This document shows positions 19,095-22,067 of a DNA stretch of 28,129 nt, piece after piece; the stretch's first letter is position 1; each line of letters begins with the position of its first letter. Position numbers and translations under genes: made by a program. Location of the stretch: the NCBI GenBank assembly GCA_041640035.1, contig JBEQBC010000008.1, positions 1 to 28,129 on the forward strand, given 5' to 3'. The stretch comes from Candidatus Nanohaloarchaea archaeon (GTDB lineage: Archaea; Nanohalarchaeota; Nanosalinia; Nanosalinales; Nanosalinaceae). The notes beneath the pieces are model-generated. The model was not told the DNA's origin. It was given only the letters and a program-made list of their open reading frames with translations, and searched no databases.

Positions 19095-20789
19095 ATGGGA
19101 ATATTTGACTCCTCGGAAGAAGTGGAAGAGAACCTTTCAGAAGCTATGGAAGAGACGAAGAAAGTTTCTAACGCCGAGGTAAAAGTAGAGAAGAAAGAAT
19201 CAGATCAGGAATGGACACACCTGATGGATGAGATACGGAACCTGAAGTCAGGGCTTAAACAGGTAAAAAGAAAGCAGGAGAAAGTAGAGAACCGTAATCA
19301 AAGAGTTGAAGACGAGCTTGACGAACTTGAAGAAGAGCTCGAGGAAATAGATAGAGATGACGAGACTGTTCAACAGGTAAGACGCCAGCTGAACGAGATA
19401 CAGTCCGAGATGCGTGAAATGGGCGGTATCGAAAGCCTTGTACAGCTGAAAGAAGATACTGAAAGCGTTCTAGATAAAGTCCGAGACATGGAGCAGGAAG
19501 TAGAGGTAGATACTGACCGTGTAGAGGATATCTACCAGGAACTTCAGGAGAAGGATGAGAAGATCCAGCAGGCTGTAAAGGATCAGGAGGAGCTGCGTGA
19601 AGACTTCGACCAGCTACTGGACCGTTTCGACAACCTCTCCATGGAGTACGATGACCTACCTTCTGCCGAAGAATTCGACCATGTTAAGGAACAATTGGAG
19701 TCTCAGAAAGAGGTAATAGATAATGTAGTACCGGCCCTGGAATCAGTATTCGACGATATCGAAGATATAGAGGAGAAATCAATCGTCACCCTGGACGAAC
19801 TTCAGGAACTTGAACAGGAGCTGGATAATACCAAGGCAGATATTTCACAGGTCAAGGAAGTCGATGAAGAAGTAGATCAGGTAAGAGAGACTACAAAAGA
19901 GAATGATAACAAGATCAAGTCTCTGAACGAGAAGATCACGCGTATAAATGATAAGACCAGAGAGATAGAGGAGCTTGAAAGCCAGATCGAAGAACTGGAG
20001 CAAGATATAGAAGAATCGAAGGAAGAGCTCCGTGAAGAAATCGATGGAGAAATACAGAACCTGAGAGAAGATTTCGACACACTTCTAGAAGACCATCCTG
20101 ATAACGAAGATCTTGAGGAAGTTGAAGAAGATCTTCACTTTGTTGTTGAGGAGCAGAAGGAGCTTGAGGAAAGCTTCGAGGAACAGATAGAGGAACTGCA
20201 GCAGAAGGTGCAGGATCTCGCGATCGAGGAGAAAGTCGATGCTTCAGAGTTCCGTCAGAGAGTACAGGAGATAAGAGGAGACCAGCTCGTAGAGCTAGGT
20301 CAGATAAGAAAAGAGATTGAACAGCTGGAAGTTGACGAAAAGATAGATTACGAGGATCTCGAGGAAGAAATGCAGGAGCTCCGTGAGGAACTCGAGCTTC
20401 AGATAAAGTATTCCCAGAACGAGCTTAGAGAAAGACATGCTACCAAGACCGAGCTCAGCGGAGTGTACGACGCACTGGAAGTGGTTCAGGACAAGATCGA
20501 GGAGGAGAAAGCTGCCAGTAATGAGAACTCCAGAGCGGTTGAAGATGTACGGAACGACCTTGAGAACCTGGAGGAAGGAATCGACTCTCGACTTTCACAT
20601 AAGGCGGAGAGAAACCAAGTTCAGGAACTGAAGAACGAAGTTGCAAGCCTTGAGAGCCGTGTAAACCAGCTGGAAGACAAGCATCAGGAAGAGTTCGTAA
20701 CTGAATCCGAGTTCCACAGCTTCAAGGAGAAGGTCGAGCAGATATCTGATCTGCTTCTGAAGGTGACGAAACGGGTTACATCCGGATAA
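19095..20789 (+). CDS. Long acidic coiled-coil protein of unknown function
   Basis: 564 aa of near-continuous heptads, with no TM segment and no Walker motifs. Confidence 0.85.
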   Translation: MGIFDSSEEVEENLSEAMEETKKVSNAEVKVEKKESDQEWTHLMDEIRNLKSGLKQVKRKQEKVENRNQRVEDELDELEEELEEIDRDDETVQQVRRQLNEIQSEMREMGGIESLVQLKEDTESVLDKVRDMEQEVEVDTDRVEDIYQELQEKDEKIQQAVKDQEELREDFDQLLDRFDNLSMEYDDLPSAEEFDHVKEQLESQKEVIDNVVPALESVFDDIEDIEEKSIVTLDELQELEQELDNTKADISQVKEVDEEVDQVRETTKENDNKIKSLNEKITRINDKTREIEELESQIEELEQDIEESKEELREEIDGEIQNLREDFDTLLEDHPDNEDLEEVEEDLHFVVEEQKELEESFEEQIEELQQKVQDLAIEEKVDASEFRQRVQEIRGDQLVELGQIRKEIEQLEVDEKIDYEDLEEEMQELREELELQIKYSQNELRERHATKTELSGVYDALEVVQDKIEEEKAASNENSRAVEDVRNDLENLEEGIDSRLSHKAERNQVQELKNEVASLESRVNQLEDKHQEEFVTESEFHSFKEKVEQISDLLLKVTKRVTSG

Positions 20790-20822
20790 TTTTTAAAACA
20801 GTTAAACCACTACTTTTGTTCT

Positions 20823-20927
20823 ATGCACAGAATGACTGAATCCACGGTTTCTACGGAAGAGTCAATGCTGTGCATGAATTTCTTCAACTCCAAGTTTATG
20901 CTTGCTAATATCTTTACCTGGAAGTAA
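20823..20927 (+). CDS. Putative leaderless uORF / leader peptide (34 aa)
   Basis: MHRMTESTVSTEESMLCMNFFNSKFMLANIFTWK*; ATG lies ~25 nt after a TTTTAAAA box (20791-20798). Confidence 0.4.
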   Translation: MHRMTESTVSTEESMLCMNFFNSKFMLANIFTWK

Positions 20928-21018
20928 TTATCCCGTTCATGCTTCCGGGGACGCCATAAAGTTCTGTTCTGGAAACGCTGTTTTTCTACGCGTTTCTGAC
21001 TCTCTGAGGTGTTCCATC
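20823..21018 (+). promoter_or_regulatory. Structured 5' leader (three hairpins plus Shine-Dalgarno)
   Basis: Stems 20823-30/20868-75, 20917-25/20941-49 and 20971-78/20990-97; GAGGTG at 21006-21011. Confidence 0.55.
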
Positions 21019-21717
21019 CTGGATATATTACCTGACTCCGGCGCCCAACGGCTCTTGTTCGTCCTCGCACTCCCACTCGTAGATGGAGTGTTCGCCACAC
21101 TACTGGTGACAGGAGCAGTACAGACATTCTCGGAGATAATGACGATAGCACTAACCGTTTTCACAGGAGCTGGAGCACTGGCCGTACTTTACTCCGAATC
21201 AGAAAGCAAAGCAGAAGCACAGAAAATGGTGAGGAAAGTAGTACCGTACCTAGTAGGAGGAACATTGCTGGTGGCGCTTGTAGCACCTGTATTCGAACAG
21301 ATATTCTATCTGACCCGTTTGAGATACGCAGCAGCCATAGCAGTCGCAGTCATCGCACTGAAAATATCGGAAGTATCTATAGCGGAGAAGTTCACTGTTC
21401 CGAGCATAATATTCACCGGTATGGCTCTATCCTTGAAACAGCCTACATCCATACAGTTAACGCTCAGCTATGTGGTTCCAGCGGTCGCAACAGTTGCAGT
21501 GGCGCTCGGAGTACTTTACATGGCGACATACATAGATCCTGAAAGACTTGATCTGGAGATAATCAGAAAAGCAGGATCTCTAGTATTGATACTGATCAGT
21601 CTATCGCTCATAGGGTTAAATGTGCCGGCAAACCTTGGTTTACTAGTTATGTCTGCCTCCATCATCGTTGCTGCACGGACTGAGGCTCAGAAGCTTGCTG
21701 TCCTGACCTCGAACTGA
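21019..21717 (+). CDS. Multi-pass membrane protein resembling haloarchaeal DUF5794; probable CTG start
   Basis: RLLFVLALPLVDGVFATLLVTGA matches my recollection of DUF5794. In-frame CTG lies 7 nt after GAGGTG, and the upstream extension to TTG 20902 does not look protein-like. Confidence 0.72.
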   Translation: MDILPDSGAQRLLFVLALPLVDGVFATLLVTGAVQTFSEIMTIALTVFTGAGALAVLYSESESKAEAQKMVRKVVPYLVGGTLLVALVAPVFEQIFYLTRLRYAAAIAVAVIALKISEVSIAEKFTVPSIIFTGMALSLKQPTSIQLTLSYVVPAVATVAVALGVLYMATYIDPERLDLEIIRKAGSLVLILISLSLIGLNVPANLGLLVMSASIIVAARTEAQKLAVLTSN

Positions 21718-22067
21718 CCGTCAATATTATTCATAAGGTAGGCTACAAGCCGTTCTCTTAAAGGCCGGAAAACGATTAGTACGCCCATGAAGTCGCTGAT
21801 GAATCCTGGTGTTAGCAGGAATACTCCTGATAGTACTATCAGTGCTCCTTCGACCATGTTTCTTGATGCTTCTCCGGCGGTTACGGATCGCTGGAGTTTC
21901 ATCAGTATGTGTATGCCTTCTCTTCTGATTAAGTGTGCGCCGATCAAACCGGTTAGAAGGACCAGTATGAACATTCTCCAGAAGCCCATGGCTCCGGCTA
22001 CCTCTACTAGAAGCCAGATATCTATCACGGGTAGTGCTAGGAGAAATACTATCAGGTATCCTATCAT
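21687..22067 (-). CDS. fxsA: FxsA family membrane protein
   Basis: LPVIDIWLL...LTGLIGAHLIRREG...LLTPGFISDFMG pattern. Confidence 0.92.
   Translation of the reverse strand: MIGYLIVFLLALPVIDIWLLVEVAGAMGFWRMFILVLLTGLIGAHLIRREGIHILMKLQRSVTAGEASRNMVEGALIVLSGVFLLTPGFISDFMGVLIVFRPLRERLVAYLMNNIDGQFEVRTASF

What the first reader, a model, noticed from the sequence alone, without database searches (positions are those of the whole stretch)
20791..21021. uORF plus three-hairpin leader controlling a CTG-start membrane protein: candidate archaeal attenuator or riboswitch
Seen: a TATA box (20791-20798) places the transcript start near an ATG (20823) that opens a 34-codon ORF with 5 Met and 1 Cys. Hairpin 1 sequesters that ATG (ATGCACAG/CTGTGCAT plus TGACT/AGTCA). 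The uORF stop falls at the end of the 5' arm of hairpin 2 (CCTGGAAGT/GCTTCCGGG). Hairpin 3 (GGAAACGC/GCGTTTCT) sits just before GAGGTG and an in-frame CTG. A ~200-nt leader is exceptional in this mostly leaderless window. Inference: translation- or ligand-dependent control of a transporter-like gene, whose LVDG first helix loosely recalls VIT1/CCC1 metal transporters. Such elements are scarcely described in archaea.
Basis: partly seen in the sequence, partly recalled or inferred. Interest (0 to 1): 0.72.

Follow-up and report, generated by a model that had tools for sequence, protein, structure and literature searches.

The report
Upstream mini-gene gating a membrane protein
A tiny, unannotated 34-codon gene and a set of RNA hairpins sit in front of a membrane-protein gene in many salt-loving nano-archaea, arranged so that reading the tiny gene probably controls whether the membrane protein is made.

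Summary
The window is nanohaloarchaeal and the gene is DUF5794 (PF19107).

The element is conserved well beyond this window. All 42 distinct leaders carry an ATG-started sORF of 29-41 codons; shuffles give 11%. A TATA-like box lies about 30 nt upstream, which suggests a leaderless first cistron.

In 39 leaders, a strand starting 0-9 nt after the sORF stop pairs with the DUF5794 start codon region (96% paired, mean z -3.3). The helix changes with the start region where that has changed. A covarying hairpin encloses the sORF stop.

In the window's genus the spacer is longer. The strand pairs with the SD and the CTG start, and hairpin 3 is genus-specific. CTG occurs in contigs of four runs, so it is not an error.

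Best reading: sORF translation remodels a helix that masks the DUF5794 initiation site. The sign of control, any signal and any peptide role are unknown. No riboswitch, terminator or VIT1 link is supported. No experimental data exist.

The parts
20790..20798 (+). TATA-like box (TTTTTAAAA), 25-33 nt upstream of the sORF ATG
   Evidence: Sequence. A like box starts 28-36 nt before the sORF ATG in most of the 42 leaders. No TSS data exist.
20823..20927 (+). Conserved sORF (34 codons plus TAA), probably the leaderless first cistron
   Evidence: An ATG ORF of 29-41 codons is present in 42 of 42 distinct leaders, against a mean of 10.6% in shuffles. Frames +1 and +2 carry a mean of 2.0 and 2.5 stops.
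20823..20875 (+). Hairpin 1, inside the sORF. In this genus the outer stem includes the sORF ATG.
   Evidence: Window z is -2.87. The mean z of 41 leaders is -2.06. G001 keeps the stem through an A-U to G-C change and an A-U to G-U change.
20917..20949 (+). Hairpin 2: the sORF tail CCUGGAAG pairs with CUUCCGGG, and the stop codon sits at the loop edge
   Evidence: -13.2 kcal/mol, z -4.1. In other genera a hairpin encloses the stop codon and shows covariation.
20944..20955 (+). Masking strand UCCGGG-GACGCC. It can pair with the CUG start region (21018-21023) and with the SD 3' half (21008-21013). Its 5' half is shared with hairpin 2.
   Evidence: window duplex -16.8 kcal/mol, z -1.59, p 0.07; G002 z -2.82; G001 z -4.48. 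The MFE folds show GACGCC:GGUGUU.
20971..20997 (+). Hairpin 3, a genus-specific insert inside the loop closed by the masking helix
   Evidence: It is absent from the 39 leaders of other genera, whose spacers are 27-57 nt against 74-91 nt here.
21006..21015 (+). SD-like GAGGTG and flanking bases, the 3' strand of the masking helix
   Evidence: It is identical in the three genomes of the genus. An SD-like element lies 9-17 nt before the start in 40 of 42 leaders.
21019..21717 (+). DUF5794 membrane-protein gene, 232 codons from a CTG start
   Evidence: Pfam PF19107, 61.7 bits against a cut-off of 25. Homologue N-termini align to this codon. G002 has ATG here and G001 has ATA. CTG is seen in contigs of X1-X4.

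Best explanation
The region 20790-21021 is the promoter and regulatory leader of a two-cistron mRNA.

Transcription probably starts at or just before the sORF ATG, making it a leaderless first cistron. The DUF5794 gene is the second cistron. It has an SD-like element, and its initiation region is base-paired to a strand that follows the sORF stop.

In most genera that strand begins 0-9 nt after the stop. A ribosome finishing the sORF would therefore cover or unwind it and free the DUF5794 start. This is translational coupling by RNA unfolding.

In the window's genus the strand lies 17-28 nt after the stop. Its 5' half can pair either with the sORF tail (CCUGGA, hairpin 2) or with the identical hexamer at the CUG start. 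Ribosomes on the sORF tail would then switch partners rather than simply unwind the helix.

Shown by computation: the conserved sORF, the TATA spacing, the conserved pairing, and the helix changing with the start region.

Inferred: that the sORF is translated, the direction of control, and any signal that modulates it.
For: 1. Organism and gene. The window is a nanohaloarchaeal contig and the gene is DUF5794.

2. sORF.
- 28 of the 30 loci fetched first carry it.
- All 42 distinct leaders have an ATG ORF of 29-41 codons that ends 27-91 nt before the main start.
- Shuffled sequences give such an ORF in 10.6% of cases.
- The other two frames carry about 2 stops each.
- Codon position 3 varies most: 0.623 against 0.534 and 0.504.
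- Three further variant leaders (L090, L096, L098) also have it.

3. TATA-like box about 30 nt upstream of the sORF ATG.

4. Masking helix.
- RNAalifold finds it without prompting.
- 96.4% of cells are paired in 25 sequences, against 21-52% when the partner is slid. 0 of 500 shuffles reach the covariation score.
- Duplex energies are -10.7 to -25.6 kcal/mol. Against shuffled 5' strands, mean z is -3.34, with 25 of 39 at p <= 0.01.
- The 5' strand begins 0-9 nt after the stop, median 3 over all 42 leaders.

5. The helix changes with the start region. In the L096/L098 lineage, L083, L081 and L005, the N-terminal codons differ and the post-stop strand differs to match.

6. GTT and CTG at codons 2 and 3 of the main ORF are nearly invariant at the nucleotide level, with no synonymous GTN variant.

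7. Specificity. Model R1 hits 39 of 70 genomes of the order. There is one hit per genome, or two where there are two gene copies, each at the position just upstream of the DUF5794 match where the two lists overlap. Paralogues of another subgroup lack the sORF.

8. Peptide constraint is weak. Many pairs have pN/pS of 0.3-1 or above. This fits a role for the act of translation rather than for the product.
Against: - There are no RNA data. No RNA run holds the locus, so the TSS, translation of the sORF and the structures are all predictions.
- In the window itself the masking duplex is only marginal against shuffles (z -1.59, p 0.07). Its strand lies outside the likely footprint of a terminating ribosome, so simple unwinding does not explain this genus.
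- Hairpin 1 has no assigned role. A single-register covariation test on it was weak: 63% paired, and 43 of 500 shuffles reached that percentage.
- Part of the peptide conservation (G-A/T-K, W-K/N) coincides with paired or mimic RNA segments. Peptide and RNA constraints cannot be separated.
- A C-terminal peptide motif and some low pN/pS pairs (0.2-0.4) leave room for a functional peptide.
Confidence: 0.6

Rival explanations
1. The sORF encodes a functional small protein, for example a partner or subunit of DUF5794. The masking helix only ensures that the two are made together. There is no sensing.
For: - The gene pair is conserved across at least 21 genera.
- There is a C-terminal motif F-G-(A/T)-K-F-x-W-(K/N), and a conserved Phe uses TTC 14 times and TTT 14 times.
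- Some close pairs have pN/pS of 0.2-0.4.
Against: - Overall identity is low (26% mean column identity).
- Several close pairs have pN/pS near or above 1.
- The peptide is basic and aromatic, has no hydrophobic segment, and sits in an acidic proteome.
- The best-conserved residues overlap RNA-paired segments.
- Only 1 protein in 1.84 billion representatives matches the family. This shows it is unannotated, not that it is unreal.
Confidence: 0.2
2. The sORF encodes a ribosome-arrest peptide. Its C-terminal residues stall the ribosome at or near the stop codon in response to a signal, which holds the masking helix open. This would be a SecM-, MifM- or TnaC-like logic in an archaeon.
For: - The conserved residues cluster in the last ~10 codons, with Trp at position -2 in 25 of 40 leaders.
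- The stop codon lies 0-9 nt from the masking strand, so a stalled ribosome would unmask the start.
- The N-terminal peptide is poorly conserved.
Against: - The motif is degenerate. W is replaced by F, R, K or L.
- UGGAA also serves as an RNA mimic of the main start in 14-19 of 42 leaders.
- No signal or membrane segment of the force-sensing type is present.
- No arrest peptide in Archaea came up in my searches.
Confidence: 0.12
3. The leader is a ligand- or protein-binding RNA (riboswitch-like) or a separate small RNA. The open frame is incidental.
For: - Hairpin 1 is stable in nearly all leaders: mean z -2.06, with 36 of 41 below -1.
- A GUUUCUG(A) stretch recurs in its apical part.
- Nucleotide conservation within the genus is high, with few synonymous changes.
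Against: - There is no Rfam match at E <= 10 other than three chance-level rows.
- The frame is open in 42 of 42 leaders, against 11% in shuffles.
- ATG is invariant at the predicted 5' end.
- The stop codon keeps a fixed place relative to hairpin 2.
Confidence: 0.05
4. The leader is a transcription attenuator. The hairpins and a T-run terminate transcription before DUF5794 unless the sORF is translated.
For: The loop of hairpin 3 holds TTTTT (20981-20985). T-rich tracts lie between the SD and the start in many leaders.
Against: A run of 5 or more T occurs in only 11 of 42 spacers, and a run of 4 or more in 26 of 42. The conserved pairing targets the start codon or SD, not a terminator.
Confidence: 0.03

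Closest known systems
Translational coupling by RNA unfolding (E. coli rpmI-rplT, phage MS2 coat-lysis). Passages read in the review PMC12548453.
   Same: The downstream initiation region is locked in a helix whose other strand lies where ribosomes on the upstream ORF travel or stop. Stop-to-start spacing of tens of nucleotides is as in rpmI-rplT (+52 nt).
   Different: Here the upstream ORF is a 29-41 codon, unannotated, probably leaderless sORF with no other known function. The organisms are DPANN archaea. The downstream start is sometimes CUG or AUA. Nothing has been shown experimentally.
Leaderless poly-Cys sORF attenuators of mycobacteria (bioRxiv 10.1101/834739; abstract and outline read)
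   Same: A leaderless sORF is the first cistron. [quoted passage not shown] The position of the ribosome on the sORF decides the fold.
   Different: There is no run of codons for one amino acid. Here the masking strand lies after the sORF stop. The domain of life differs.
Ribosome arrest peptides (SecM-secA, MifM-yidC2, TnaC). Recalled, not read here.
   Same: A short upstream ORF is conserved mainly at its C-terminal end. It is placed so that a stalled ribosome would open a structure masking the next gene's initiation site, and that gene encodes a membrane protein.
   Different: No stalling has been shown. The motif is degenerate. There is no N-terminal targeting segment. Part of the motif is explained by RNA pairing.
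Pfam DUF5794 (PF19107)
   Same: The downstream protein matches at 61.7 bits against a cut-off of 25. The family also matches in Haloferax volcanii (control).
   Different: The family has no known function. No solved fold matches clearly.

Membership tests
Translational coupling by RNA unfolding | The initiation region of the downstream gene is base-paired in an inhibitory structure | tested here: met
   96.4% paired; mean z -3.34 in 39 leaders. Window genus.
Translational coupling by RNA unfolding | The partner strand lies where a ribosome translating or terminating the upstream ORF covers it | tested here: inconclusive
   Met in the 39 leaders of other genera, where it lies 0-9 nt after the stop. 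In the window the strand is 17-28 nt after the stop, outside the likely footprint. Only its alternative partner, the sORF tail, would be covered.
Translational coupling by RNA unfolding | Downstream expression depends on upstream translation | not testable with these tools
   Needs reporters or Ribo-seq. No RNA run is listed.
Leaderless-sORF amino-acid attenuators (mycobacterial type) | The sORF starts at the 5' end of the transcript | tested here: inconclusive
   A TATA-like box starts 28-36 nt before the ATG in most of the 42 leaders. There are no TSS data.
Leaderless-sORF amino-acid attenuators (mycobacterial type) | A run of codons for the sensed amino acid | tested here: not met
   The peptide alignment and codon table show no conserved homopolymeric run. 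The 5 Met and 1 Cys of the window are not conserved.
Ribosome arrest peptides | A C-terminal peptide motif conserved at the amino-acid level | tested here: inconclusive
   The motif F-G-(A/T)-K-F-x-W-(K/N) is present but degenerate. pN/pS is mixed. The motif overlaps RNA-paired segments.
Ribosome arrest peptides | Ribosome stalling at a defined codon | not testable with these tools
   Needs toeprinting or Ribo-seq.
Riboswitch (any Rfam family) | Match to a described aptamer model | tested here: not met
   cmscan of 20500-21400, both strands, E <= 10: three rows of 13.7-15.1 bits, far below their gathering scores. None lies in the leader structures.
Transcription attenuator | A conserved terminator signal (oligo-T) in the leader | tested here: not met
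   A run of 5 or more T occurs in 11 of 42 spacers.
Pfam DUF5794 (PF19107) | Score above the curated cut-off | tested here: met
   61.7 bits against 25, E 1e-16. 64.4 bits in the genome search.
VIT1/CCC1 metal transporters | Sequence or fold similarity to the family | tested here: inconclusive
   No Pfam hit other than DUF5794 at E <= 0.1. No NCBIfam hit. Foldseek gives nothing at E <= 0.001. VIA-align lists only generic helical bundles. An unlisted family is not excluded.

The most novel reading that the evidence does not exclude
The leader is a nascent-peptide- or termination-sensing translational switch. The sORF's C-terminal peptide holds the ribosome at its stop codon in response to a cellular signal and so unmasks the DUF5794 start. 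The unmasked site may be used partly by re-initiating ribosomes, which would explain why CUG, AUA and GUG starts are tolerated. This would be the first arrest-peptide or uORF sensor described in Archaea, and it would sit in host-dependent DPANN cells.
Probability: 0.15. Interest if true: 0.85.

Novelty: new variant of a known kind. Interest (0 to 1): 0.62.

Why it matters
Conserved cis-acting translational control by upstream ORFs is well studied in bacteria and eukaryotes. My searches found no described archaeal case of this kind.

This leader offers a family-wide, sequence-defined example that could be tested:
- It occurs in at least 42 distinct leaders and at least 21 genera.
- It has a clear masking helix with natural compensatory variants.
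- It has natural start-codon variants (AUG, GUG, CUG, AUA).

It also adds an unannotated sORF family to the small genomes of Nanohaloarchaeota. It explains why gene callers truncate some DUF5794 proteins. It marks DUF5794 as a membrane protein whose dosage these host-dependent cells appear to control tightly.

Tried and rejected
- **Rfam.** The evalue-mode scan found nothing relevant.
- **N-terminal extension from TTG 20902.** Rejected. Homologues start at the CTG position. G002 has a stop 6 codons upstream of its ATG. Strain variants carry frame-breaking indels.
- **Fusion or frameshift of the sORF into the main frame.** Rejected for the same reason. The sORF is also in all three relative frames across loci.
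- **Minus-strand ORF 20810-21151.** No family hit. It overlaps the conserved plus-strand features. Not pursued.
- **Archaeal BHB-intron idea.** Considered but not tested. It is not needed, because G002 has a plain ATG.
- **Hairpin 1 covariation model R2.** Inconclusive. 63% of cells were paired, slides of +/-3 gave 56-58%, and 43 of 500 shuffles reached the percentage paired. The helices sit in different registers and GCN repeats add periodicity. I rely on alignment-free z-scores.
- **Oligo-T terminator.** Not conserved.
- **DUF5794 fold.** The model has pLDDT 77.4 and pTM 0.71. Foldseek PDB gave no match at E <= 0.001. VIA-align wide gave only generic helical bundles; the top hit was a designed protein at Z 11.3.
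- **Complex prediction of peptide with DUF5794.** No verdict: score 0.00 against a mark of 0.32.
- **RNA runs.** No RNA holder is listed.
- **Metagenome scans for close relatives.** The first found none. The second found 2 loci of 56-60% identity. The 70-84% identical clade (P0002-P0016) could not be examined as DNA.
- **The search for homologous proteins with the 34-aa peptide.** A profile search of 1.84 billion representatives found 1 protein, which is unnamed.
- **Halobacterial DUF5794 loci.** Not reached. The genome-contig scan returned 32 loci. All that carry an organism name are Nanohaloarchaea, except one contig labelled Colwellia polaris; several are labelled only uncultured archaeon.
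- **Weak R1 hit in the window** (20868-20974, 16.7 bits, E 0.51). Treated as not significant.
- **Literature.** 'DUF5794' gave 0 papers. 'Nanohaloarchaea' plus 'leader peptide' gave 0. One search failed on syntax.

Full report
**What is in the window.**
- A TATA-like TTTTTAAAA lies at 20790-20798, directly after the stop of a 564-aa coiled-coil gene.
- An ATG at 20823 opens a 34-codon ORF with 5 Met and 1 Cys. It ends at 20927.
- Hairpin 1 pairs 20823-30 with 20868-75 and 20833-37 with 20860-64.
- Hairpin 2 pairs 20917-24 with 20942-49.
- Hairpin 3 pairs 20971-78 with 20990-97.
- GAGGTG lies at 21006-11, and an in-frame CTG at 21019.

RNAfold recovers the three hairpins. The energy is -58.5 kcal/mol against -45.9 for shuffles, z -2.96, and 1 of 200 shuffles folds as well. 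No Rfam family matches.

**Organism and gene.** The window is contig C8 of a ~1 Mb genome whose relatives are Nanohaloarchaea. The downstream ORF is DUF5794 (PF19107, 61.7 bits against a cut-off of 25).
- Homologues are 221-236 aa, and their N-termini align exactly at the window's CTG.
- The closest genome, G002 (97% identity), has ATG at that codon and a stop six codons upstream. G001 (77%) has ATA.
- Contigs of four public runs keep CTG. X1 has two strain variants with CTG, and X2, X3 and X4 have it too. One X1 contig carries the C>A (ATG) variant, at depth 153 of 441.

So CTG is a real and widespread allele, and the protein does not start at TTG 20902.

**The sORF is conserved.**
- Among 30 DUF5794 loci from 30 genomes, 28 have an ATG-started sORF just upstream.
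- After adding model-based hits and named records, there are 42 distinct leaders: 39 from other genera and 3 from the window's genus.
- All 42 have an sORF of 29-41 codons that ends 27-57 nt before the main start, or 74-91 nt in the window's genus.
- Dinucleotide shuffles of the same regions give such an ORF in 10.6% of cases, 20.5% at most.
- Frames +1 and +2 of the same stretch carry a mean of 2.0 and 2.5 stops.
- Codon position 3 is the most variable: 0.623 against 0.534 and 0.504.
- The sORF lies in all three frames relative to the main ORF, so it is not an N-terminal extension.
- Three more variant leaders (L090, L096, L098) also have it. Loci of a second DUF5794 subgroup (L029, L077, L078, L030, L092) do not.
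- A TATA-like box starts 28-36 nt before the sORF ATG in most leaders. This fits a leaderless or near-leaderless first cistron.
- Only one protein among 1.84 billion representatives matches the peptide profile, and it is unnamed. The sORF is therefore essentially unannotated.

**Conserved RNA structure: the masking helix.**
- On 25 leaders from other genera, RNAalifold by itself predicts a 9-bp long-range helix. It joins a CCAGRRCCR strand just after the sORF stop to UGGUUCUGG, which is the main start codon plus the next six bases.
- Pair counts show 96.4% of cells paired, against 21-52% when the partner is slid. Purine transitions opposite U are tolerated, and 0 of 500 shuffles reach the covariation score.
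- Duplex energies in the 39 leaders are -10.7 to -25.6 kcal/mol. The 5' strand begins 0-9 nt after the stop, median 3 over all 42 leaders.
- Against shuffled 5' strands the mean z is -3.34, with 25 of 39 at p <= 0.01.
- Where the first codons of DUF5794 differ, the post-stop strand differs to match. This holds for MNSDS in L096/L098, MNLE in L083, CCG at codon 3 in L081, and CTT at codon 2 in L005.
- GTT and CTG at codons 2 and 3 are otherwise nearly invariant, with no synonymous GTN variant, across proteins that are only ~50% identical.

**Conserved RNA structure: the two hairpins.**
- A short hairpin encloses the sORF stop. Its 5' arm lies in the G-(A/T)-K codons and its 3' arm right after the stop. 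All four scored pairs show changes on both sides.
- Hairpin 1 is alignment-free evidence only. The first ~60 nt of the sORF fold with mean z -2.06, with 21 of 41 below -2, 36 of 41 below -1, and 1 above 0.
- A single-register model of hairpin 1 gave no clear covariation.

**Specificity.**
- Model R1 (stop hairpin plus masking helix) hits 39 of 70 genomes of the order, in 21 of 32 genera.
- There is one hit per genome, or two where there are two gene copies, each at the position just upstream of the DUF5794 match where the two lists overlap.
- DUF5794 itself is found in 47 of 70 genomes.

**The window's genus is a variant.**
- R1 does not match it significantly.
- Its spacer is longer and holds hairpin 3, which the other genera lack.
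- Its post-hairpin strand 20944-20955 can pair as GACGCC with GGUGUU, the 3' half of the SD. It can also pair as UCCGGG with CCUGGA, the CUG start at 21018-23.
- The duplex energy is -16.8 kcal/mol, z -1.59, p 0.07. G002 has z -2.82 and G001 z -4.48.
- The UCCGGG half is also the 3' arm of hairpin 2, whose partner is the same hexamer CCUGGA at the sORF tail (-13.2 kcal/mol, z -4.1).
- The sORF tail and the main start therefore compete for one strand.
- The same tail mimicry (UGGAA) is significant in 14 of 42 leaders. It may account for part of the 'W-K/N' peptide motif.

**Mechanism.** The best-supported reading is translational coupling by RNA unfolding, as described for bacterial pairs (passages of PMC12548453). 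Its layout resembles mycobacterial leaderless sORF attenuators (abstract of 10.1101/834739).
- Ribosomes start on the 5'-terminal sORF.
- At its end they occupy or unwind the strand that masks the DUF5794 start, letting that gene initiate from its SD-like element. Such an element is present 9-17 nt upstream in 40 of 42 leaders.
- Start codons at the masked site are ATG in 34 leaders, GTG in 5, CTG in 2 and ATA in 1. Near-cognate initiation has been noted in Haloferax ribosome profiling (passage of PMC7261190).
- In the window's genus the geometry differs, so the sign of control may differ too.

Peptide constraint is weak and uneven. pN/pS runs from about 0.2 to above 1 in pairs with at least 50% identity. 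This favours a role for translation itself, but does not exclude a functional or arrest peptide.

A conserved terminator is not present.

**What DUF5794 does remains unknown.** The model is a helical membrane protein (pLDDT 77.4) with no clear solved relative. Nothing links it to VIT1/CCC1.

**Limits.** There are no transcript, ribosome or probing data. All structure and translation claims are computational. The genomes are related, so the counts overstate independence. The 70-84% identical clade and the halobacterial homologues could not be examined as DNA.

Noticed in passing
window 21019-21021; L003 (G001); L059 (G070): Non-canonical start codons recur at the conserved DUF5794 start. The window has CTG, G001 has ATA and G070 has CTG. 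Five other leaders use GTG. Public gene calls of a related clade (P0009-P0016, 203-205 aa) begin about 30 residues late, probably for this reason.
   Followed up: partly
window 20780-21120 in run X1: At least three co-existing strain variants of this leader occur in one hypersaline-lake run. Indels are concentrated in the hairpin 1 loop and around hairpin 3.
   Followed up: partly
window 20961-20974: GTTCTGTTCTGGAA resembles the start motif ATGGTTCTGGAA of other genera but is out of frame. It could be a relic of a duplicated or displaced start region. The R1 hit is weak (16.7 bits, E 0.51).
   Followed up: no
window 21687-22067 (-): An FxsA-family gene (PF04186, E 1e-27) converges on DUF5794. 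The two 3' ends overlap by 31 nt.
   Followed up: no
window 19095-20789 (+): A 564-aa, very acidic coiled-coil protein has weak SMC-, Rad50- and ASRP-like hits, all far below their cut-offs. ORFs with similar C-termini precede the leader in several other genera, so the synteny is conserved.
   Followed up: no
L062 (JBLGBK010000012.1): A contig labelled as a Colwellia polaris MAG carries a nanohaloarchaeal-type DUF5794 locus (76% identity to the window). It is likely mis-binned.
   Followed up: no
L005, L006, L009, L017, L023, L024: The genome search flagged one TAG inside the open frame around the DUF5794 match in several genomes. I did not check whether these lie beyond the gene ends.
   Followed up: no
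hairpin 1 apical region, e.g. window 20846-20853: A GUUUCUG(A) stretch, encoding V-S-E/G, recurs in the apical part of hairpin 1 in many genera. Its role is unknown.
   Followed up: no
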